Origin: Candidatus Nomurabacteria bacterium | GTDB taxonomy: Bacteria > Patescibacteriota > Minisyncoccia > Phycocordibacterales > UBA918 | NCBI GenBank assembly: GCA_020632015.1 | Contig: JACKGI010000004.1 | Coordinates: 1 to 59,852, forward strand | Reading direction: 5' to 3' | DNA length: 59,852 nt | Shown: in pieces, positions 1 to 59,265 of the stretch | Layout: each line of letters begins with the position of its first letter | Position numbering within the stretch: position 1 is the stretch's first letter | Program-made: the position numbers and the translations under genes | The notes under the pieces: model-generated | The model's database searches: none | What the model was told of the DNA's origin: nothing | The model's input: only the letters and a program-made list of their open reading frames with translations

Positions 1-808
1 ACCAGTCAGTTCTATACTGGCAAGGTTATTGGTCCAGACGGAGAATACATAGAGAGTAGTAGTCACGAAGCTTTGGTTGACGATGATACGTTCAATCAAG
101 TTCAAGCCCTGCTCGGCAAGAAAAAAGTCAGTGTTCACTACACCGAGAAACTTGACCACCCGATGCGTGGAATGGTTCGTTGTGCTTATTGCCAACGTGT
201 ATATACTCCGTATACAAAGAAAGGCATTTTGTACTTCAATTCTCGTTGCGTAAAAGGGTGCGAAAACACAATGAAGAACTGCAACTTCGATTTCATTTCA
301 GAGAAGGTGCGAGGATTACTGACCAACCTATATTTCACTGACGATGAATTGGCTGAACTTGATGCTCGAACCAGTACGGACATCTCATTGTTGGAAGAAA
401 AGAGAAATAAAGAGTTTGAGCAGATTGAACGCAAGAAGAAACGTGTTCGTGAGCAGTTGGCATATCTACGAACCAACCGACTTTCATTGCTAACTTCTGG
501 TGCATATTCACCTGAAAGTATTGTTGCAGAACAAAATAACCTTGATGCTGAATTGGAAGCATTACAAGATGGCGAGCAAGCATCTGACGTTGCAATGAAG
601 GAATTGATGAAAGATGTAGTGACTCTTTCAGAACTCATAAAAAACACTGTACCCATTTACGATTTTGCAAATCCACACGAAAAAGAGAAAATCGTACGTG
701 TGATTTTTTCAGAACTTTTTATTTCACAAAATACGTTGGAATATAAAGTCAAAAAGGGCTTTGAGCCCTTCATTGACCGCATTTCTGCTATTTGTGATCC
801 TACGGGGA
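1..808 (+). mobile_element. right end of a second, upstream integrative element (tandem to the element at 794..5863)
   Basis: A recombinase paralog terminates at a copy of the same att core that bounds the downstream element. The remainder lies outside the window. Confidence 0.45.
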
Positions 809-831
809 GCGATTTGGAACCGTATTGTTAA
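1..831 (+). CDS. large serine recombinase, C-terminal portion (5' end outside the window)
   Basis: Frame 1 is open from base 1. The product is collinear with the C-terminal half of the complete recombinase at 4352..5887 (FYTGKVIG vs LYAGIVKK, HEALV vs HEPIV, Cys-rich zinc-ribbon CAYCQRVY...C.KGC, coiled-coil, GFEPF vs GFGTA tail). The last codons cross a 15-bp copy of the tRNA-Glu 3' end. Confidence 0.75.
   Translation, partial: TSQFYTGKVIGPDGEYIESSSHEALVDDDTFNQVQALLGKKKVSVHYTEKLDHPMRGMVRCAYCQRVYTPYTKKGILYFNSRCVKGCENTMKNCNFDFISEKVRGLLTNLYFTDDELAELDARTSTDISLLEEKRNKEFEQIERKKKRVREQLAYLRTNRLSLLTSGAYSPESIVAEQNNLDAELEALQDGEQASDVAMKELMKDVVTLSELIKNTVPIYDFANPHEKEKIVRVIFSELFISQNTLEYKVKKGFEPFIDRISAICDPTGSDLEPYC
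794..808. repeat. 15-bp direct repeat GTGATCCTACGGGGA (att core, copy 1)
   Basis: Identical to 5849..5863, which is the acceptor/T-stem 3' strand of tRNA-Glu. Flanking bases are partly similar. Confidence 0.8.
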
Positions 832-876
832 ACAAGTACACACAGTAAATTTTTAATAAGATGGTAGAATCATTAC

Positions 877-1455
877 ATGAATGGTGATGAAGATTTTTTA
901 TATGCAAAACATGATATATCTACTTCAAACGGAGAGTTTGTAGGGGTTCATGACGTCGGATTATTAAAGAGTTCAGATGGCGATAGCTGTACAGTCTTTT
1001 TTATTACTGCCTGGAAGGATATTGTTGTCCCATGTTCATCGGTAGAGATATTTGATGAAACCAAAACAGGAGATGGGTTTTCAAAGAAGATTTGCAATGT
1101 TTGCCACAAGCTTAAAAATACAAGCGATTTTGAACCAAATCAGACTGGTGTTAATAATAGGGTCGTAAGGAGACCCTCATGTTCTTACTGTCGAAAACAT
1201 ATAGACGGAAAGAAGATGGATAAGTCTGATTGGAAAGAGTGGCAAAAAACAAAACCAAACCGAGTTCCTTTCGAATGTCCTATTTGTGGTAAAAGAACCA
1301 TTGCTGGTGTAACCAGTAAGGTCGTTTTAGAACATGATCATAAAAATGGTGAGATTAGAGGTTGGGTTTGTGATAGTTGTAATACAGGTCTGGGTAGATT
1401 TAAGGATGATGTCGGAATCCTTAACAGAGCAATTAGATTTATTAGTGGAAGCTAG
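877..1455 (+). CDS. HNH / endonuclease VII-type (beta-beta-alpha-Me) nuclease, putative type II restriction endonuclease
   Basis: C-terminal EHDHKNGEIRGWVCDSCNTGLG matches the EndoVII/HNH signature (DH..G..RG.LC..CN..LG). Two CxxC pairs (CNVCH, CSYC, CPIC) suggest zinc fingers. Convergent with and abutting a DNA methyltransferase. Confidence 0.7.
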   Translation: MNGDEDFLYAKHDISTSNGEFVGVHDVGLLKSSDGDSCTVFFITAWKDIVVPCSSVEIFDETKTGDGFSKKICNVCHKLKNTSDFEPNQTGVNNRVVRRPSCSYCRKHIDGKKMDKSDWKEWQKTKPNRVPFECPICGKRTIAGVTSKVVLEHDHKNGEIRGWVCDSCNTGLGRFKDDVGILNRAIRFISGS

Positions 1456-2315
1456 TCTTTGTGCTCGTGTAGACGTTTTTTAGCTATTTCAACGTATTCT
1501 TCAGAAATATCACAGCCAATGTAGTTTCTATTGTTCAACATAGCCATCTTACATGTTGTTCCCGATCCACACATTGGGTCAAATACAACATCTCCTTCTT
1601 CCGACCACGAGAGTATATGGTCTTCAGCAAGTTTCTCTGGGAAGATTGCGGGGTGTTCAAAAGCAATTCTATCGCTGGTTGATCCATGTAGTCCAACCGC
1701 ATATTCCCATATATTTGTTAAAGTTTTTTCTGGCTTGAGCTCTTTCTTAATTTTTTTATTTACACCATCTGCTCCTTTGTTATGTGGAAGTGGCTCAATA
1801 CCTTGTCTTACAGTTTTTGTTTTTAATGGATTAAAGGTTTTTGGTGATGACTTTGTGAAAACAAACATGAACTCATAACAATTTGTGTATGCGTTTGATC
1901 GCATAAATGGTGTGTTCTTTTTCTTGTATATCATCACATCATGCACATTGAATCCGACCTGTTGAAAAAGCAGTGCTTGCTTAAAGCTGGTTAAGCTTTT
2001 GTTACCATTTTTAATTTTGTCTCCAACAACCCAAATAACAACCCCACCTTTTTTCATGACTGCGTAAAGGCTTTTTGCCATCCCTTCAAAATCAAAATGA
2101 TAACCCTTGTAATCTCTTAATTCATCGTACGGCGGTGATGTCACAACAAGGTCTATAGATCCTTCAGGGAAACTTTTCATTACCTCTACTGCATTACCAA
2201 CAACAAAATCATTAATTGGTAACTTTTCCTCTTGTCCTATCAATTTTTCTTGCTTTGGTTGGCTTACGACCTTGTTTTTGTTAGTTGTTTGATGCATTGC
2301 CTGTGATTTTATCAT
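1452..2315 (-). CDS. DNA methyltransferase, beta-class N4-cytosine or N6-adenine
   Basis: Motif IV TSPPY lies near the N-terminus and motif I FDPMCGSGTT near the C-terminus (beta-class order). Confidence 0.85.
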   Translation of the reverse strand: MIKSQAMHQTTNKNKVVSQPKQEKLIGQEEKLPINDFVVGNAVEVMKSFPEGSIDLVVTSPPYDELRDYKGYHFDFEGMAKSLYAVMKKGGVVIWVVGDKIKNGNKSLTSFKQALLFQQVGFNVHDVMIYKKKNTPFMRSNAYTNCYEFMFVFTKSSPKTFNPLKTKTVRQGIEPLPHNKGADGVNKKIKKELKPEKTLTNIWEYAVGLHGSTSDRIAFEHPAIFPEKLAEDHILSWSEEGDVVFDPMCGSGTTCKMAMLNNRNYIGCDISEEYVEIAKKRLHEHKD

Positions 2316-2330
2316 ATATACATTTTTTGT

Positions 2331-2436
2331 CGACGCAGCAGTTGCACTTGACTAAAGCCGCCCGCACTAGTCGCGCCCGCCTGCGGAGCTTCGCGCCGCG
2401 AGCTTGTGAGCGGTGTGAAGGGCGGGGTAAGGGCGG
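2331..2436. other. GC-rich structured intergenic segment inside the element
   Basis: A local run of GC-rich sequence in an AT-rich context. AGCCGCCC (about 2364) can pair with GGGCGGCT (about 2426), enclosing GAGCTTCGCG/CGCGAGCTT quasi-palindromes. Confidence 0.4.
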
Positions 2437-3054
2437 CTAAGAAAACCAAAGACCCAATTTGTTCCTGATTCTTGTAACCTCTATGCCAACATCAAAGTGT
2501 GCCTCTCTAGCAATCTTTGCTTGCAAGGCAATTATGTCCTTCGTCAGTTTTTGGCCATTGTCTTCTTTAATATTTTTCATGTCATCTTTGAAGTCACCAA
2601 TCATAAGTAGTTGCATACGTGTAAATGGTTTTAGTGCAACAGACTTTTCAGTTATTTCCTTTAATACTCCTTTGTGGCCCAGATATCTATACCAAGCCTC
2701 TTCACTGACCTTTTCCTTGTTTTCTTCCCATTTCTCCATAAAATTATCCATAGTTGCTTCTTTGCCAATAATTGGCATAGAGGCAATGGGGTTTGTAATT
2801 TCGTTAACACAATTTCTCATGGAAAGCAGCACGCCTAGAATTTCTTTTGCTTCCCTTGATCTAAGTTCATGACCGAACGTTTTAGATGTCCACCAAGCCG
2901 TAAAAATAGTTACTAAAGTTACTGCCATAGCTTGAAAACTACTTAATATAACTTGTGTTTTTTCAGGTGCGAAAAAAATACCTGAGATAATGGCTCCCAG
3001 AAGTAGTCCAATGACAAACATTAGAACATCTGCTTTTGTAATCAACTTTTTCAT
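2437..3054 (-). CDS. hypothetical membrane protein (two N-terminal TM helices plus soluble domain), element cargo
   Basis: 205-aa ORF with hydrophobic segments VLMFVIGLLLGAIISGIFF and AMAVTLVTIFTAWW. No motif recognised. Confidence 0.6.
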   Translation of the reverse strand: MKKLITKADVLMFVIGLLLGAIISGIFFAPEKTQVILSSFQAMAVTLVTIFTAWWTSKTFGHELRSREAKEILGVLLSMRNCVNEITNPIASMPIIGKEATMDNFMEKWEENKEKVSEEAWYRYLGHKGVLKEITEKSVALKPFTRMQLLMIGDFKDDMKNIKEDNGQKLTKDIIALQAKIAREAHFDVGIEVTRIRNKLGLWFS

Positions 3055-3297
3055 TTCCTATTTAAAATACAACATGATTTATAATTTTCTTCTTTACAAC
3101 ATACTTCTTTTCTTTTGTCCCGTAACTTTTTCAGCTAAACAAGAGTTTTAAAGCACAAGCTCTAAAGCAAGCTTAAATATAAAAAAGCTAACTGAGAGCT
3201 AAAAAGGATAAAAGAAGTCTAGAATCCTTAAGCTTTAAAATAGTTTAAGGAGTTTTTTGTGCCCGCATAACAGCGGGCTTTTCTTGTGCTTCAAAAC

Positions 3298-3365
3298 GGG
3301 GTTCCAGTCCCTGCACCAGCGGTTTCGCGGGGCAGGGATGGACCCCGGAGGGGGACTTGATTAAT
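3298..3365 (+). promoter_or_regulatory. candidate double-strand origin (GC-rich imperfect hairpin plus ACTTGATTAAT nick-like motif)
   Basis: GGGGTTCCAGTCCCTGC (3298-3314) pairs imperfectly with GCAGGGATGGACCCC (3332-3346). ACTTGATTAAT at 3355-3365 resembles the CTTGATA nick core of phiX174/pC194-type origins. It lies 33 nt upstream of the Rep start. Confidence 0.5.
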
Positions 3366-3397
3366 CCCTCACTTAACTAATTAACAACTTAAATTAA

Positions 3398-4183
3398 ATG
3401 TCATACATCAAAGTAACTACATACGGCGATTATGTCGAAATAAATGAATACGAACATGATCTTATACGAAACCATGACGGACGCGCAGGCCGGCGGTCGT
3501 CAGCTATTAGCAATGATAATTTGGGAACTAGCAGAGAGGATTCACTTCAGACCGGGGACAGTGAAGAAAAAGTGGGGCGCCGATCCGATAACGCGTGGCG
3601 CGCTAGCATGGCTTTCCGAAGGCTTGTTTCAGCTAACCTCGGGAGAGGATCTGCACCACCTCTACTGGCTACACTTACCTACGGGAGCAATTTCACCGAC
3701 CTTAGTGCGGCGTATAAACACTACTCAGCTTTTGCGCAATCTCTCAGACGCAAGTTCGGGCATGACTTTAAGTACCTATGCGTCCCAGAATTTCAAGAAC
3801 GTGGCGCCGTACATTTCCACGCTTTCCTCTGGGGGTTACCCGAAGAACTTTTTCTTCTGGAGAGGGAAAATCGTACCGTGGCACAAATCTGGAGCCATGG
3901 TTTTGTCGATCTCAAAAGAACAGATGGAGCAGGGGCGTTGGCTGGGTACCTAGCTAAATATCTAACCAAAGCCTATGAAGACCCGCGTCTCAAGAATCAA
4001 AAAGCATACACCGCTTCTCGCAATATCATTCGTCCTGAAGTGTTTACGGGGAACTTCAGTGCCGATCGCATTCTCTTTGAATTAGGGGTTGATTCTGAGC
4101 CTGAAGTCTCACGCGAATACAACACAAAGTGGTTTGGTCGTGCCACCTATCGCAAATACAAGATTAACCATGATGAGCCTTAA
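3398..4183 (+). CDS. rolling-circle replication initiator (HUH endonuclease, two-tyrosine type)
   Basis: Motif 1 LLATLTY, motif 2 VHFHAFLW (HUH), motif 3 YLAKYLTK (Y-x3-Y, compare phiX gpA YVAKYVNK). Confidence 0.8.
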   Translation: MSYIKVTTYGDYVEINEYEHDLIRNHDGRAGRRSSAISNDNLGTSREDSLQTGDSEEKVGRRSDNAWRASMAFRRLVSANLGRGSAPPLLATLTYGSNFTDLSAAYKHYSAFAQSLRRKFGHDFKYLCVPEFQERGAVHFHAFLWGLPEELFLLERENRTVAQIWSHGFVDLKRTDGAGALAGYLAKYLTKAYEDPRLKNQKAYTASRNIIRPEVFTGNFSADRILFELGVDSEPEVSREYNTKWFGRATYRKYKINHDEP

Positions 4184-4349
4184 GCATCTTAGAGAAATAG
4201 AACCTAAACTCGCTAATGCTTCTGATGAAGAAGTGGCTCTTATTCGTGAAAAAATCTATGAAGTGGCGCACCTTGCATACGATTCTTATAAAGAAGACCG
4301 TGATTCCAAATTCGCCGTGGGGTCAGCGGAAGTGGACGATGAAAAATAG
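4170..4349 (+). CDS. small hypothetical protein (59 aa) between Rep and recombinase
   Basis: ATGATG start overlaps the Rep stop, and the ORF ends 2 nt before the recombinase start. Tight operon-like packing; no motif recognised. Confidence 0.4.
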   Translation: MMSLKHLREIEPKLANASDEEVALIREKIYEVAHLAYDSYKEDRDSKFAVGSAEVDDEK

Positions 4350-4351
4350 CT

Positions 4352-5887
4352 ATGTATGATACTGATATGACAGGAAAGCGAGGGATTATCTATTGTCGCG
4401 TGTCTTCGCTCGAACAGGTGGATGGAACTAGTCTTGAATCACAGGAGCGGATTTGTCGTGAATATGCCGAACGTGAAGGTATAGAAGTTGCTGATGTGTT
4501 TGTTGATCGAGGCGAATCTGCTAAAACTGCCGATCGTCCTCAGTTTCTTAAAGCAATTTCATTTTGTGGTCAAAAGAAAAACCAGATTGATTTTTTCATA
4601 GTATATAAATTAGACCGCTTTTCTCGTAGTCAGACCGATCACTTCGCTGTTCAAAACAGTCTTAATAAATATGGTGTCACTATTCGCTCTGCTACTGAAC
4701 CGGTTGATGAATCACCAATCGGAAAATTCTTAATGGGCACATTGTCTGCTTCAGCTGAATTTGATAACAGTATCCGCTCTGAACGTAGCTCGACTGGTAT
4801 GCGAGAACGCCTTAAGCAAGGAATCTGGGTCTGGCCGGCTCCTACAGGTTATCAACGTCTAGAAAAAGGCGGCGTTATGGTGCCTGATAACGACGCTCAG
4901 TATGTCCGCCTCGCTTTCAATGAGTATGTGAAAGGGACTCATACATACAAAACTCTAGCCACTCTCTTATTTGAAAAAGGTCTACGCTCAAAATCTGGCA
5001 AAAAGATTGAGTTTCAAACTATTCAAAAAATGATCCATAACCCTCTGTATGCTGGTATCGTGAAAAAGGATGAATGGGGCATCGAAGTCAAAGGACAACA
5101 TGAACCTATTGTCACTGAGTCACTATTTTATAAATGCCAAGGTGCCGGACGGTCACATAAGGGAACAAAGAAACAAGAAAAGAATCCTAATTTTCCACTT
5201 CGCAGACTGGTTTCTTGCGAGTGGTGTGATGATCCATTAACAGGTAGCTTTTCGACTGGACGTGGTGGCAAGAAGCACGGTTATTATCATCATCACAAAC
5301 AAGGTTGTCCGCACGCTAAATCAATCAAAAAGAAAGACCTTGAAGAATCATTTGTCTCTTTTCTAGAGGAGATAAATCCTACCTTTGAATTTGCCAACGC
5401 TTTCAAAGAGGCGTGTATGGAAATTTATCGAGAAGATAACACCAATGCTGAAAAACAAAACGAGACGGTTAGACAGCAGGTCGCTAGCCTGTATGAGAAA
5501 AAGAAAGCCATCTTTAACAATTTTGAAGAGGGTATCTATACCAAGACTGACTTCTTAGAACGAAAACGAGAAGTGGAACGACAGCTATATGCCGCTCAAA
5601 GTAACTTGATTGAAGTGCGGGGTGGCGAATTAGACTTTGAAGCCGCTCTTGATTACTGCATAAGTTTCATTATTGATACTCCTGATACTTGGAAGCGATT
5701 GGTAAAACAGCCTGAAAAAAGGCTACGGTTCCAAAATTTTATTTTCGAGGGCAGTATTCCTTATACACAAAACAACGGTTTTGGAACCGCTGTTTTGTCG
5801 CCTATTTACTCACTATCTGAGGAGTATAAACGTGATAAATCTTCGTTGGTGATCCTACGGGGAATCGAACCCCGATTTCCAGGATGA
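4352..5887 (+). CDS. large serine recombinase (integrase)
   Basis: N-terminal resolvase catalytic motif IIYCRVSSLEQ, DRFSR, a recombinase domain, zinc-ribbon CEWCDDPL...C, and a coiled-coil tail. The 3' end overlaps tRNA-Glu on the opposite strand. Confidence 0.9.
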   Translation: MYDTDMTGKRGIIYCRVSSLEQVDGTSLESQERICREYAEREGIEVADVFVDRGESAKTADRPQFLKAISFCGQKKNQIDFFIVYKLDRFSRSQTDHFAVQNSLNKYGVTIRSATEPVDESPIGKFLMGTLSASAEFDNSIRSERSSTGMRERLKQGIWVWPAPTGYQRLEKGGVMVPDNDAQYVRLAFNEYVKGTHTYKTLATLLFEKGLRSKSGKKIEFQTIQKMIHNPLYAGIVKKDEWGIEVKGQHEPIVTESLFYKCQGAGRSHKGTKKQEKNPNFPLRRLVSCEWCDDPLTGSFSTGRGGKKHGYYHHHKQGCPHAKSIKKKDLEESFVSFLEEINPTFEFANAFKEACMEIYREDNTNAEKQNETVRQQVASLYEKKKAIFNNFEEGIYTKTDFLERKREVERQLYAAQSNLIEVRGGELDFEAALDYCISFIIDTPDTWKRLVKQPEKRLRFQNFIFEGSIPYTQNNGFGTAVLSPIYSLSEEYKRDKSSLVILRGIEPRFPG

Positions 5888-5921
5888 AAACCTGGCGTCC
5901 TGACCATTAGACGATAGGACC
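5847..5921 (-). tRNA. tRNA-Glu (anticodon UUC), CCA encoded
   Basis: Manual cloverleaf: GGTCCTA/TAGGATC acceptor, anticodon stem CCAGG/CCTGG with loop TTTTCAT, T-arm CGGGG-TTCGATT-CCCCG, ACCA end. Confidence 0.93.
5849..5863. repeat. 15-bp direct repeat GTGATCCTACGGGGA (att core, copy 2, inside tRNA-Glu)
   Basis: Identical to 794..808. Confidence 0.8.
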
Positions 5922-6011
5922 AATATCTGGTCTTACTAAATATGACTAGTAAGTGCGCAACATAATAACAGACTATTTAAAAAAAGCTAGTCTAGATATC
6001 TTTTAATATCT

Positions 6012-6047
6012 AAAATCCCCGTAACTTTTTAAGGTTACAGGGATTTT
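6012..6047. terminator. hairpin terminator downstream of ORF 6096..6539
   Basis: AAAATCCCCGTAAC / GTTACAGGGATTTT stem with one mismatch, flanked by A/T runs. Confidence 0.5.
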
Positions 6048-6095
6048 GGACATTCATCTTCAGTCAGCATAATTTTTGGGCACAATATTATTTTT

Positions 6096-6539
6096 TTAAT
6101 TTACCATTACTCCTGTTGGTACATTATTGTGATTTTGTTTGACATTTTGTTTTGTCGATACACGATGAATTGAATTAGCGGGTATCGAAACTAATGGTGG
6201 AGGAAGGTTGTCCATCTTGTCCTTGTGTAGTTGTGCAGATTGCGGAAAGGCTAGTCCAATTTTAATCGACCCAATCTCCCTCGGCACTAGGGTCAGAGTG
6301 ACTAAACTTTGGTGTCTGAAAGCCTTTACCTCAACGTCTAAGATGCTGACTGCGGTTGGGTCGCAGATTATATTCAATTGCTTACCTTGCTCACTTGTGA
6401 GTGGTGTTTGCAAAAGAAAATTAACTGTCTCTGTTGCTCCACGATGTAGAGTAATATCGTGGAAAAAATTTAATCTCCGTACGTATGGACTTGCTAACAA
6501 GTCATCGTCGGTGATGAATAATGAGTAGAATCTAATCAT
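6096..6539 (-). CDS. hypothetical protein
   Basis: 147-aa ORF with no recognisable motif. DnaA-box-like repeats lie upstream of its start. Confidence 0.5.
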   Translation of the reverse strand: MIRFYSLFITDDDLLASPYVRRLNFFHDITLHRGATETVNFLLQTPLTSEQGKQLNIICDPTAVSILDVEVKAFRHQSLVTLTLVPREIGSIKIGLAFPQSAQLHKDKMDNLPPPLVSIPANSIHRVSTKQNVKQNHNNVPTGVMVN

Positions 6540-6732
6540 ATGCTTTTCGCTTGCGCGTAGTTAGAGCTGATAATTTTGCTCAACGTTGGCTGCGTATGAT
6601 GAAACGTGATGGGCGGGGAGCTACTTCGTTCAGACTATTGACGGTTCGCTAAACAGCTTGTATATGCTAGGTGTATATTCAATGCGCGTCAAGTGGGTTA
6701 TGGGCAGGGTTTTACCCTGTGTTTTACACGAG

Positions 6733-6764
6733 TTATATACAGACTTATGCACAAGTTATACACA
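6733..6764 (+). promoter_or_regulatory. three phased DnaA-box-like 9-mers
   Basis: TTATATACA (6733), TTATGCACA (6745), TTATACACA (6756), compared with the consensus TTATNCACA. All are direct, spaced 12 and 11 bp, and followed by an AT-rich tract. Confidence 0.5.
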
Positions 6765-6983
6765 GAAGCCTATTGAAATAAGGTTTTCTATATTGTATTG
6801 ACATATTTTTACGGTATGTGAACATGTATACAGGTTTGCGCGGTGGTGAAGTATCTAAATACTTACGCTCGAGGCTACGAGCAAAGCGCGCAAGCCGAAG
6901 CTCTACGTTGTACAAAGCGAAAGCGCCCTGGAGGGGGCGCTTTTGCGTTTCTGGATAGATATTATTTATACTATCTAGGTTAA

Positions 6984-7018
6984 TCTAAAGACCGCCAGCT
7001 TTGCTGGCGGTCTTTAGA
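6984..7018. terminator. intrinsic terminator downstream of trxB
   Basis: TCTAAAGACCGCCAGC-TTT-GCTGGCGGTCTTTAGA, 16-bp stem. Confidence 0.7.
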
Positions 7019-58991: not shown

Positions 58992-59062
58992 TGCCGGATC
59001 GTCTAATGGTAGGACTGCGGTTTCTGGTACCGTCTATCGGGGTTCGAGTCCCTGTCCGGCAG
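58992..59062 (+). tRNA. tRNA-Gln (anticodon CUG)
   Basis: U1:A72 acceptor TGCCGGA/TCCGGCA, anticodon stem GCGGT/ACCGT with loop TTCTGGT, T-arm CGGGG-TTCGAGT-CCCTG. Confidence 0.9.
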
Positions 59063-59117
59063 CATAATTTAGTTTGACCCCAATGCGCATGCATTGGGGT
59101 CTTACTAAATTACCTGA

Positions 59118-59265
59118 CTACAGGGACTCGAACCGAGACGGCGCGAAGCCCGACGAAATGAAATGGAGTCGGAGCCGTCGAGTGGGGGTCGAGGGAGTGA
59201 GATATTTTGAGTTCAAAGAACGAAAAAAATATCCACGAGAGTGACCGATTCCCTGTCCGGCAGCA
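59118..59265 (+). repeat. tRNA-3'-end-linked hairpin module, copy 4 (downstream of tRNA-Gln)
   Basis: 59120..59134 is a perfect 15-nt inverted copy of the tRNA T-arm (59041..59055). Hairpin at 59137..59179. 59250..59265 is a 16-nt direct copy of the tRNA 3' end (59049..59064). Confidence 0.55.

What the first reader, a model, noticed from the sequence alone, without database searches (positions are those of the whole stretch)
794..5863. Integrated ~5 kb element at tRNA-Glu pairing a phiX/pC194-type rolling-circle Rep with a large serine recombinase
A perfect 15-bp direct repeat (GTGATCCTACGGGGA at 794-808 and 5849-5863, the latter inside tRNA-Glu) brackets six genes. These are an HNH/EndoVII-type nuclease, a beta-class DNA methyltransferase, an unknown two-TM protein, an HUH Rep with all three superfamily-I motifs (LTLTY, HFHAFLW, YLAKYLTK), a 59-aa ORF and a 511-aa serine recombinase. 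There is no capsid or conjugation gene. The element therefore looks like a rolling-circle plasmid or ssDNA replicon that can integrate site-specifically into a tRNA gene and carries its own R-M system. I believe few, if any, mobile elements of this kind have been characterised in CPR-type genomes. The unknown membrane protein (2437-3054) is a candidate for an additional defence or exclusion function.
Basis: partly seen in the sequence, partly recalled or inferred. Interest (0 to 1): 0.75.

Follow-up and report, generated by a model that had tools for sequence, protein, structure and literature searches.

The report
Integrative rolling-circle element at tRNA-Glu
A 5-kb mobile DNA element sits at the end of a tRNA gene in a CPR (Patescibacteria) bacterium. 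It carries its own replication protein, a serine integrase and a restriction-modification system, and it belongs to a large family, apparently undescribed, that shares its replication machinery with small filamentous-phage-like circles.

Summary
A 15-bp repeat, present only twice in the window, brackets 5,055 bp next to tRNA-Glu(UUC).

The six genes are:
- an R.Hpy99I-like type II restriction enzyme
- a beta-class N4/N6 methyltransferase
- an unknown membrane protein
- an HUH Rep (Pfam REP_ORF2-G2P)
- a conserved 58/59-aa protein
- a large serine integrase

- **Tandem array:** the left flank is the 3' end of a second, unrelated serine integrase gene.
- **Second context:** an identical copy of the element lies in other samples, with a different left flank and a different tRNA variant. 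This shows recent mobility and confines strand exchange to GTGA.
- **Origin:** an invariant phiX174/pC194-like nick motif, GACTTG(A/C)T, lies about 40 nt upstream of Rep. It is found in 115 of 135 related loci.
- **Family:** the order Rep, then serine integrase, then the 3' end of a tRNA recurs in about 80 Patescibacteria loci, at 13 tRNA types.

All 19 circular contigs with this Rep type carry filamentous-phage-type genes where tested, and none carries an integrase. The integrated elements lack morphogenesis genes and often carry restriction or nuclease cargo.

Best reading: an integrative rolling-circle replicon. How it moves between cells is unknown.

The parts
1..831 (+). C-terminal 276 codons of a second, unrelated large serine recombinase. 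It is the end of a neighbouring element integrated in tandem, and its last codons cross the left repeat.
   Evidence: phrog_95 integrase, 3.6e-20. Only 26% identity over 43 aa to the element's own recombinase. A 51%-identical relative in L051 abuts tRNA-Glu(UUC), with a Rep gene behind it.
794..808 (.). attL core, the left copy of the 15-bp repeat. Bases 798-808 (TCCTACGGGGA) belong to the element.
   Evidence: In L001/L005 the left junction keeps TCCTACGGGGA although the tRNA there reads CCCCACGGAGA.
877..1455 (+). Type II restriction endonuclease, R.Hpy99I-like (beta-beta-alpha-Me / His-Me finger).
   Evidence: PDB 3fc3 R.Hpy99I, E 8.8e-46 over residues 5-189. PADLOC REase_II, 3.1e-47. Pfam PF18275 + PF02945.
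1452..2315 (-). Beta-class N4/N6 DNA methyltransferase. It converges on the nuclease gene and overlaps it by 4 bp.
   Evidence: PF01555, 2.7e-45. PADLOC MTase_II, 5.6e-68. SPPY lies near the N-terminus and FDPMCGSGTT near the C-terminus (sequence).
2357..2441 (.). Conserved G+C-rich long hairpin. Candidate single-strand origin or packaging signal (inferred).
   Evidence: 84-88% identical in L096, L126, L134 and L141/L142, next to unrelated genes. The consensus hairpin has 4 pairs kept through changes on both sides.
2437..3054 (-). 205-aa membrane protein with two N-terminal hydrophobic helices. Function unknown.
   Evidence: No Pfam, PHROG or PADLOC hit. Only 4 homologues among 5.8 billion proteins; one (P0122) lies on a 4,430-bp JGI contig, the same length and source listed for Rep homologue P0017. 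AlphaFold pLDDT 78, all-helical, no fold match.
3261..3278 (+). Terminator-like G+C hairpin followed by a T run, in the Rep leader.
   Evidence: A hairpin plus T run is visible at the same place in most of the 11 aligned relatives, with different sequences (read by eye; not tested).
3297..3347 (+). G+C-rich imperfect hairpin directly upstream of the nick hairpin. It is part of the origin region.
   Evidence: DNA fold of 3230-3400: -35.7 kcal/mol, z = -4.85, 0 of 200 shuffles as stable. G+C-rich inverted repeats of unrelated sequence are visible at the same place in several aligned relatives (read by eye; not tested).
3348..3370 (+). Predicted double-strand origin. The stem is GAGGG/CCCTC and the loop holds GACTTGATTAAT (3354-3365). 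The nick is predicted between G3359 and A3360.
   Evidence: GACTTG.T...TC.CTCACTTAA is invariant in 11 relatives. CTTGnT lies a median 39 nt upstream of the Rep start in 115 of 135 loci, against about 0.13 expected per locus. The match to the phiX174/pC194 nick site CTTG^ATA rests on my own knowledge.
3398..4183 (+). HUH rolling-circle replication initiator with motifs LATLTY, HFHAFLW and YLAKYLTK.
   Evidence: PF23343, 1.9e-20. phrog_3419, 2.3e-29. T94, Y95, H139, H141, Y184, K187, Y188 and K191 are invariant in 31 sequences. AlphaFold pLDDT 81, with weak but recurrent matches to HUH nuclease domains.
4170..4349 (+). Conserved 58/59-aa protein. Its start overlaps the Rep stop and it ends 2 nt before the integrase ATG. 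Function unknown; a recombination directionality factor is one guess.
   Evidence: 24 distinct homologues at the same position. No family hit.
4352..5887 (+). Large serine integrase, 511 aa, with predicted catalytic Ser18 in YCRVSS. The last 13 codons are read from the att core and the tRNA gene.
   Evidence: PF00239 (1.8e-31), PF07508 (1.2e-15), PF13408. Homology to the SPbeta integrase 9dxh, TP901-1 and A118 integrases.
5849..5863 (.). attR core, the right copy of the repeat. Strand exchange is confined to GTGA (5849-5852), and probably to GTG.
5847..5921 (-). tRNA-Glu(UUC), the target gene. It is intact after integration, and its 3' CCA is supplied by the element.
   Evidence: ARAGORN. Rfam, 66.3 bits. 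Junction sequences.

Best explanation
**What it is.** Window ~796-5850 is a 5,055-bp integrative rolling-circle replicon inserted at the very 3' end of tRNA-Glu(UUC) of a Patescibacteria (CPR) genome. It sits in tandem with a second integrase-bearing element on its left.

**Shown:**
- the boundaries and the gene identities
- an identical copy in a second genomic context
- a conserved origin motif
- membership of a large family with the fixed order [variable cargo]-[accessory gene]-origin-Rep-(small ORF)-serine integrase-tRNA

**Inferred mechanism:**
- **Integration.** The large serine integrase recombines attP of the circular form (...TCTTCGTTG GTGA TCCTACGGGGAGCGATTTGG...) with the last bases of the tRNA gene. 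It exchanges strands at a 2-bp overlap inside GTG (tRNA positions ~72-74). The element carries a copy of the tRNA's 3' segment, so the tRNA stays intact. Because the integrase gene runs across attP, integration swaps the protein's last residues.
- **Replication.** After excision, Rep nicks the plus strand at GACTTG^ATTAAT, in the loop of a small hairpin 40 nt upstream of its own start codon, and copies the circle by rolling-circle replication. The conserved G+C-rich hairpins (2357-2441, 3297-3347) probably serve lagging-strand initiation.
- **Cargo.** The Hpy99I-like restriction-modification pair stabilises the element and gives the host a defence function.
- **Transfer.** The route between cells is not determined.
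For: **Boundaries and mobility.**
- The repeat occurs only twice in the window, against a chance expectation of 0.04.
- Logan contigs from SRR14234111-15 and SRR12358676 carry the element 100% identical over window 793-5852. Their left flank is different (...AGCAAGTAGT|GTGA) and their tRNA side is different (GTGA|CCCCACGGAGAATCGAACTCC).
- The left junction there keeps the element's TCCTACGGGGA, so the crossover lies within GTGA.
- In 11 close relatives at tRNA-Glu, -Lys and -Arg, the only bases shared at the junction are TGGTG.
- Near-identical strains (99.5-99.9%) have other DNA after the same tRNA base.

**Genes.**

**Rep and origin.**
- The catalytic motifs are invariant.
- The nick-type motif is invariant in alignment A2.
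- It is present a median 39 nt upstream of Rep in 115 of 135 loci.
- The origin region folds with z = -4.85.

**Family.**
- Among loci whose Rep is at least 36% identical, 83 have a serine recombinase directly downstream. Of the 68 where the far side can be seen, 66 abut a minus-strand tRNA, covering 13 tRNA types.
- Bounded relatives are 4.6-7.5 kb. They have no morphogenesis ATPase, and several carry R-M or nuclease cargo.

**Host.** FtsZ is 85-92% identical to Ca. Nomurabacteria, Kaiserbacteria and Paceibacteria proteins.
Against: - No excised form was seen. None of the 19 circular contigs carrying this Rep type has a serine recombinase, and I could not look at raw reads for a 5848|809 junction.
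- No proven empty site. The DNA after the tRNA in L007 matches nothing else on hand.
- attP shows no clear dyad symmetry around the proposed crossover: at most 10 of 24 positions.
- The Rep model matches HUH nuclease structures only weakly (E >= 0.02, TM 0.25-0.33), and Rep has no solved relative by sequence.
- The nick position, the role of the hairpins and the role of the 59-aa protein are analogies, not tests.
Confidence: 0.8

Rival explanations
1. It is a satellite of a filamentous (inovirus-like) phage of Patescibacteria. The element keeps only replication, integration and cargo genes. It spreads when a helper phage with the same type of Rep and origin supplies coat and assembly proteins, as RS1 does with CTXphi in Vibrio (own knowledge).
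For: - Circular contigs of 4.8-7.3 kb (L052, L064, L101-L103, L158, L171, L175/176, L195) carry a Rep 39-47% identical to this one. The two read in full (L052, L064) also encode a Walker-A (Zot/pI-like) ATPase, coat-like membrane proteins and a small protein after Rep. The others match one or more of those proteins by tblastn.
- L052 and L064 have the same nick motif, GACTTGATA.
- The integrated elements lack all morphogenesis genes.
- The conserved G+C-rich hairpins could be packaging signals.
Against: - There is no evidence of packaging.
- The IMG/VR scan found no close Rep+integrase element among viral contigs. That collection is biased to hallmark genes, so this is weak evidence.
- The host of the circles rests on binning only.
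- A shared Rep type is also found in plain small plasmids.
Confidence: 0.2
2. It is an integrative mobilizable element. Rep acts mainly as a relaxase at an oriT, and the element is moved by a type IV secretion or pilus system encoded elsewhere.
For: - In Firmicutes, most IMEs of streptococci encode relaxases related to rolling-circle initiators, some have serine integrases, and some carry type II R-M (PMC5704250).
- A conjugation-like T4SS has been reported in Patescibacteria (title seen; not read).
Against: - There is no coupling protein or other transfer gene in the element.
- Known serine-integrase IMEs insert into protein-coding genes, not tRNA genes.
- The Rep and origin are of the type used by free, replicating phage-like circles and by 1.5-kb plasmids.
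Confidence: 0.1
3. It is an inert remnant of a filamentous prophage that has lost its structural genes and no longer moves.
For: The Rep type is shared with Zot-bearing circles, and no circular form of the element was found.
Against: - All six ORFs are intact.
- An identical copy exists in a second context.
- More than 80 loci share the same compact architecture without morphogenesis genes. That is a stable lineage, not random decay.
Confidence: 0.05

Closest known systems
[quoted passage not shown]
   Same: They are small elements kept integrated at the 3' end of a tRNA gene. They replicate by the rolling-circle mode after excision using a phage-like Rep (RepSA), and tandem integration at one tRNA is known (PMC2440964). 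The window's Rep also touches Pfam RepSA (3.1e-10).
   Different: AICEs use a tyrosine integrase with an identity segment and carry an FtsK-like transfer gene. They are 9-24 kb and live in Actinobacteria. This element uses a large serine integrase, has no transfer gene, and is 5 kb in a CPR host.
Dehalococcoides ssrA genomic islands (DsiB serine integrase)
   Same: A large serine recombinase gene lies next to the att site, the islands integrate at the 3' end of a tRNA-like gene (tmRNA) leaving a ~20-bp direct repeat, and several islands sit in tandem (PMC3146451).
   Different: They have no HUH Rep or origin and need a second small recombinase. The islands are larger, with metabolic cargo. The insertion point is in the T-loop rather than at the 3' terminus.
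Integrative mobilizable elements of Firmicutes with rolling-circle-type relaxases
   Same: They are compact elements that pair an integrase (sometimes a serine integrase with a 2-bp crossover) with an HUH initiator-like protein. Some carry type II R-M (PMC5704250).
   Different: Serine-integrase IMEs target protein-coding genes. Many carry a TcpA coupling protein. The Rep families differ (Rep_trans, Rep_2, PHA00330).
Integrated inoviruses and the RS1 satellite of CTXphi
   Same: The Rep family (PF23343, ORF2/G2P) is shared. Inoviruses have been reported in CPR, and some carry serine recombinases (PMC6813254). RS1 keeps only replication, integration and regulation genes (own knowledge).
   Different: This element has no pI/Zot ATPase and no coat genes. 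CTXphi and RS1 integrate through host XerCD at dif (own knowledge), not through their own serine integrase at a tRNA.
Small rolling-circle plasmids of Firmicutes (pC194-like; 1.5-1.8-kb Geobacillus and Brevibacillus plasmids)
   Same: The Rep is 29-30% identical over its full length, and the nick motif is of the CTTGAT type (own knowledge for pC194).
   Different: Those plasmids have no integrase and no chromosomal state.

Membership tests
HUH rolling-circle initiators, two-tyrosine (phiX174 gpA / pC194 Rep type) | Motif II HUH (His-hydrophobic-His) | tested here: met
   HFH at residues 139-141; H139, F140 and H141 are invariant in 31 homologues.
HUH rolling-circle initiators, two-tyrosine (phiX174 gpA / pC194 Rep type) | Motif III with two tyrosines three residues apart (YxxKY) and motif I (uuTuT) | tested here: met
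   Y184-L-A-K-Y188 and LATLTY (90-95). Y184, K187, Y188, T94 and Y95 are invariant.
HUH rolling-circle initiators, two-tyrosine (phiX174 gpA / pC194 Rep type) | Profile-level family membership | tested here: met
   PF23343: 73.4 bits against a cut-off of 27.8. phrog_3419: 2.3e-29.
HUH rolling-circle initiators, two-tyrosine (phiX174 gpA / pC194 Rep type) | HUH nuclease fold | tested here: inconclusive
   The model has pLDDT 81. Matches to AAV Rep, parvovirus NS1, circovirus Rep and Helitron domains recur but are weak (E 0.02-0.1, TM 0.25-0.33).
HUH rolling-circle initiators, two-tyrosine (phiX174 gpA / pC194 Rep type) | Cognate origin with a conserved nick sequence | tested here: met
   The GACTTG(A/C)T motif is found in 115 of 135 loci, a median 39 nt upstream of Rep. 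Cleavage itself was not tested.
Large serine recombinases (phage-type serine integrases) | N-terminal resolvase catalytic domain with the R-V-S serine | tested here: met
   PF00239, 1.8e-31, residues 12-158. YCRVSS at residues 14-19.
Large serine recombinases (phage-type serine integrases) | Recombinase domain, zinc ribbon and C-terminal coiled-coil region | tested here: met
   PF07508 (1.2e-15) and PF13408 (0.0011, below its cut-off). Residues 59-424 align to the SPbeta integrase and 207-413 to the A118 integrase C-terminal domain.
Large serine recombinases (phage-type serine integrases) | Strand exchange at a 2-bp overlap, with no long identity needed between attP and attB | tested here: inconclusive
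   Comparing the two contexts confines the crossover to 4 bp, GTGA, and to GTG across tRNA types. This is compatible with a 2-bp overlap, but the dinucleotide was not mapped.
Inovirus-like (Tubulavirales) prophage | Morphogenesis ATPase (pI/Zot) and coat proteins | tested here: not met
   No Pfam or PHROG hit to such proteins. tblastn with Zot, coat and SSB proteins of related circles finds nothing in the window. No ORF in the element has a Walker A motif.
AICE (pSAM2-like) | Tyrosine integrase and an FtsK/Tra-type transfer protein | tested here: not met
   The integrase is of the serine type, and there is no FtsK-like gene.
AICE (pSAM2-like) | Integration at the 3' end of a tRNA gene plus a rolling-circle Rep | tested here: met
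Type II restriction-modification system (Hpy99I-like) | Restriction enzyme homologue next to a DNA methyltransferase | tested here: met
   R.Hpy99I, E 8.8e-46. Convergent N6_N4 methylase overlapping by 4 bp.
Type II restriction-modification system (Hpy99I-like) | Matching recognition sequence of nuclease and methylase | not testable with these tools
   This needs methylome data or enzyme assays. CGWCG occurs 3 times in the element.
Phage satellite (RS1-like) | Packaged by a helper phage's virion proteins | not testable with these tools
   Only circumstantial: the Rep and origin type is shared with Zot-bearing circles.
Integrative mobilizable element | Relaxase/oriT used by a conjugation system encoded elsewhere | not testable with these tools
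   Rep could act as a relaxase, but there is no coupling protein gene.

The most novel reading that the evidence does not exclude
The Rep + serine-integrase elements are satellites of the small Zot-encoding filamentous-phage-like circles that share their Rep and nick site. They reside at tRNA genes of CPR bacteria, carry defence genes such as restriction systems, and are packaged as single-stranded DNA by the helper. That would be a phage-satellite system for filamentous phages in CPR, built on a serine integrase.
Probability: 0.2. Interest if true: 0.8.

Novelty: new variant of a known kind. Interest (0 to 1): 0.6.

Why it matters
CPR/Patescibacteria make up a large share of bacterial diversity, yet their mobile elements are barely described and genetic tools are scarce.

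- **Simplicity and abundance.** This family is simple: about 5 kb, with one integrase, one Rep and one origin. It is also abundant. The Rep profile finds 544 clusters (50% identity) at E <= 1e-30, and the synteny recurs in roughly 80 loci at 13 tRNA types.
- **Testable hypothesis.** It offers a direct test of how restriction systems and other defence genes move between these small genomes.
- **Tool parts.** It provides candidate parts for site-specific integration vectors: a serine integrase with a defined attP, and tRNA attB sites.
- **Evolutionary link.** It ties integrative elements to filamentous-phage-like replicons in the same hosts.
- **Unusual target.** A large serine integrase that targets the extreme 3' end of tRNA genes, with its own stop codon lying beyond the crossover, is unusual for this enzyme class.

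Tried and rejected
- **Dyad symmetry of attP.** The best score around candidate central dinucleotides was 10 of 24 positions, which is uninformative.
- **Left neighbour.** An exact look-up of the partial left recombinase found nothing. Look-ups through the element's own genes returned only short Logan contigs, not the source contig.
- **Empty site.** The DNA after the tRNA in L007 matches neither L006 nor the window, so I cannot call it the native flank.
- **Rfam.** A scan of 1-7000 found only the tRNA.
- **59-aa protein versus the small upstream protein (C0) of other clades.** hhalign probability was 1.4%, so there is no evidence of homology.
- **Membrane protein.** No family hit. Only 4 homologues. 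The AlphaFold model is a helical bundle with no significant match in PDB or BFVD.
- **Rep against the PDB by sequence profile.** Nothing found.
- **Morphogenesis proteins of related circles against the window and the integrated loci.** Only L061 matched.
- **Promoter scan.** No more hits than in shuffles.
- **Chance repeat.** Rejected.
- **Decayed prophage.** Rejected as the main reading because of the identical second copy and the uniform compact architecture.

Full report
**Observation.** The 15-mer GTGATCCTACGGGGA occurs exactly twice in the window, at 794-808 and 5849-5863, even with two mismatches allowed. Chance expectation is 0.04. The repeat extends to 18 nt with one mismatch. The right copy is the 3' end of tRNA-Glu(UUC), which lies on the minus strand at 5847-5921 (Rfam 66.3 bits).

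Profile searches confirm each assignment:
- **877-1455:** His_Me_b4a2 + Endonuclease_7. It is a full-length homologue of the restriction enzyme R.Hpy99I (E 8.8e-46; PADLOC REase_II 3.1e-47).
- **1452-2315 (-):** an N6_N4 methyltransferase (2.7e-45). SPPY precedes the FxGxG motif, which is the beta-class order.
- **3398-4183:** REP_ORF2-G2P (1.9e-20) and phrog_3419, 'rolling circle DNA replication initiation' (2.3e-29).
- **4352-5887:** Resolvase + Recombinase + zinc ribbon. It is homologous to the SPbeta, TP901-1 and A118 integrases.
- **The 205-aa membrane protein and the 59-aa ORF:** no family hit.

One small correction: motif I of Rep reads LATLTY.

Window 1-831 is not host DNA. It encodes the C-terminal 276 residues of another large serine recombinase (phrog_95 3.6e-20), unrelated in sequence to the element's own, and its last codons cross the left repeat. 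A 51%-identical relative of this protein in locus L051 also abuts a tRNA-Glu(UUC), with a Rep gene behind it. The window therefore most likely shows two elements integrated in tandem at one tRNA gene. That arrangement is known for AICEs (PMC2440964) and for Dehalococcoides ssrA islands (PMC3146451).

**Evidence of mobility and position of the crossover.**
- Exact look-ups of the element's proteins found Logan contigs from SRR14234111-15 and SRR12358676 that are 100% identical to window 793-5852 but differ outside it.
- There the left flank is ...AAAAGCAAGTAGT|GTGATCCTACGGGGAGCG..., and the right end reads ...TCTTCGTTG|GTGA|CCCCACGGAGAATCGAACTCCGATTT. That is a different tRNA variant, one mismatch from the tRNA-Glu(CUC) of L015.
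- The left junction keeps the element's TCCTACGGGGA while the tRNA side has CCCCACGGAGA. Strand exchange must therefore lie within GTGA.
- In the close clade the element-tRNA junction is always ...TCTTC(T/G)T|TGGTG(A/C)..., whether the target is tRNA-Glu, -Lys or -Arg. That narrows the shared core to GTG, at tRNA positions ~72-74.
- This fits the 2-bp overlap of serine integrases. It also explains why many relatives show no repeat of 10 bp or more.
- The 15-bp repeat in the window exists because attP mimics this host's tRNA 3' segment.
- The element also supplies the encoded CCA (TGG at 5846-5848). The strain in L007 has CAC|ACG after the same base.
- The integrase ORF runs 39 nt beyond the start of the core into the tRNA gene. 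In the circular form it would instead end ...SLVILRGAIWNRIVKQVHTVNF (read). Its last residues therefore depend on context.

**The site is a hot spot.** Two assemblies 99.5-99.9% identical to the window's right flank diverge exactly at the tRNA's end. L006 has a different island, with a helicase and a 403-aa serine recombinase. L007 has unrelated DNA that I could not show to be the native flank. L095, an element whose Rep is 90% identical, sits between the end of the L006-type island and a tRNA-Glu-like 3' end.

**Origin of replication.**
- An alignment of the 270 nt upstream of Rep from 11 relatives shows one invariant block, GACTTG.T...TC.CTCACTTAA, just before the start codon. It is preceded by G+C-rich inverted repeats of unrelated sequence.
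- In the window the motif GACTTGATTAAT (3354-3365) lies in the loop of the hairpin GAGGG/CCCTC (3348-3370).
- The region 3230-3400 folds with z = -4.85.
- Across all fetched loci, CTTGnT lies a median 39 nt upstream of the Rep start in 115 of 135 cases, against 0.13 expected per locus. A is almost invariant at -1, and G dominates at -2.
- From my own knowledge, this is the nick sequence type of phiX174 (CAACTTG^ATATTAATAAC) and of pC194-family plasmids (CTTG^ATA). I therefore predict nicking between G3359 and A3360.
- A second conserved non-coding element, a long G+C-rich hairpin at ~2357-2441, is 84-88% identical in four to five relatives where the adjacent genes differ. It shows four compensatory pairs. 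I read it as a candidate single-strand origin or packaging signal.

**The family.**
- The Rep has 180 word-indexed homologues. A profile search finds 544 clusters (50% identity) at E <= 1e-30 and 3,309 at E <= 1e-10.
- Scans of GTDB species genomes, IMG/VR and JGI metagenomes gave 186 loci.
- Among loci with a Rep at least 36% identical:
  - 83 have a serine recombinase directly downstream
  - in 66 of the 68 cases where the far side is visible, it abuts a minus-strand tRNA
- Over all fetched loci the tRNA targets are Gln 35, Glu 13, Leu 5, Lys 4, Ile 4, Ser 4, Tyr 3, Asn 3, and Arg, Trp, Asp, Val and Pro once each. These counts are not de-duplicated between collections.
- Named hosts are almost all Patescibacteria. 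The window's own FtsZ is 85-92% identical to proteins of Ca. Nomurabacteria, Kaiserbacteria and Paceibacteria.
- Bounded relatives measure 4.6-7.5 kb.
- Their left halves vary. Recurrent unknown proteins (C0, C1, C2) lie next to Rep. Cargo includes an MvaI/BcnI-type restriction enzyme with a methylase, PD-(D/E)XK nucleases with methylases, DUF2726, DUF559 and a Walker-A protein of 488 aa.
- The 59-aa ORF is conserved in 24 distinct sequences of the close clade.

**Relation to filamentous phages.**
- All 19 contigs with a terminal overlap (circular assemblies) that carry this Rep type lack a serine recombinase.
- L052 and L064, read in full, encode a Walker-A (Zot/pI-like) ATPase, coat-like membrane proteins and a small protein after Rep.
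- L101-L103, L158, L171, L175/176 and L195 match one or more of those proteins by tblastn.
- Their Reps are 39-47% identical to the window's. L052 and L064 have the same nick motif.
- Conversely, no integrated Rep + integrase element has a morphogenesis ATPase.
- The Rep is also about 30% identical to Reps of 1.5-1.8-kb plasmids of Geobacillus and Brevibacillus, and to an inovirus-like virus from rodent faeces.
- One replication module therefore serves three lifestyles. The window's element is the integrative one.

**Mechanism and its status.**
- **Shown:** boundaries, gene identities, recent mobility, origin motif, family synteny.
- **Inferred:** excision to a 5,055-bp circle; Rep nicking at the origin and rolling-circle copying; re-integration at GTG of a tRNA 3' end; stabilisation and host defence by the Hpy99I-like R-M pair.
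- **Unknown:** the route between cells. A helper filamentous phage (satellite reading, about 0.2) and mobilisation by a secretion system (about 0.1) are the named alternatives. Uptake of free DNA is also possible. I found no circular Rep + integrase contig and could not inspect reads, which is the main gap.

**Comparison with known systems.** The element works like a pSAM2-type AICE without transfer genes and with a serine instead of a tyrosine integrase. Its integration resembles the Dehalococcoides ssrA islands. Its gene pairing resembles Firmicutes IMEs, which however target protein-coding genes. Roux et al. reported inoviruses in CPR and serine recombinases in some inoviruses, but the present elements fail the defining pI test. 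Five literature searches found no description of Rep + serine-integrase elements at tRNA genes in CPR.

**Verdict.** This is a new variant of a known kind. It is real and well delimited, and it is a member of a large, apparently undescribed family. Interest 0.6.

Noticed in passing
window 59049-59064 and 59250-59265: A perfect 16-bp direct repeat of the 3' end of tRNA-Gln(CUG) (TCCCTGTCCGGCAGCA; only 2 copies, chance 0.00) brackets 185 bp of G+C-rich, hairpin-rich DNA with no gene. tRNA-Gln is the commonest target of the Rep + integrase family, so this may be the scar or a miniature remnant of such an element. It matches none of the fetched loci.
   Followed up: partly
window 1-831: The 3' end of a second large serine recombinase gene, whose stop lies just past the left repeat. 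It implies a tandem array of two elements at tRNA-Glu. The rest of that element lies outside the window.
   Followed up: partly
window 2346-2356 and 5604-5613: Two further nick-like sequences on the plus strand: CACTTGACTAA in the G+C-rich region, and AACTTGATTG inside the integrase gene. Whether Rep could use them, for example as termination sites, is unknown.
   Followed up: no
L006 7768-16592 (GCA_020428855.1): A near-identical strain carries a different island at the same tRNA-Glu base. It encodes a PIF1/AAA_30-type helicase, a 403-aa serine recombinase, a 419-aa N6_N4 methylase and hydrolases. Its end (CTCTCTAA) is also the left flank of element L095.
   Followed up: partly
L051 3728-8668: Two Rep + serine-integrase elements face each other across two adjacent, divergent tRNA genes, tRNA-Ser(CGA) and tRNA-Glu(UUC).
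   Followed up: no
L065, L066, L074, L076, L077 (Clostridia MAGs): Very small elements of 2.6-3.1 kb with a distant Rep (29-33% identity) are flanked by 18-46-bp repeats of the 3' end of tRNA-Ser. They have the nick motif TTAACTTGATTA and no detectable serine recombinase.
   Followed up: no
L191, L193, L197: Contigs of 2.3-2.7 kb carry the same distant Rep twice at a spacing of about 1.4 kb. They may be concatemer assemblies of a 1.4-kb Rep-only plasmid.
   Followed up: no
L085 8603-9981: A distant member of the Rep family is paired with an excisionase-like ORF and what looks by eye like a tyrosine integrase next to tRNA-Gly, flanked by a 21-bp repeat 7.1 kb apart. I did not run these ORFs against any family library. 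If right, the Rep module has combined with both integrase classes.
   Followed up: no
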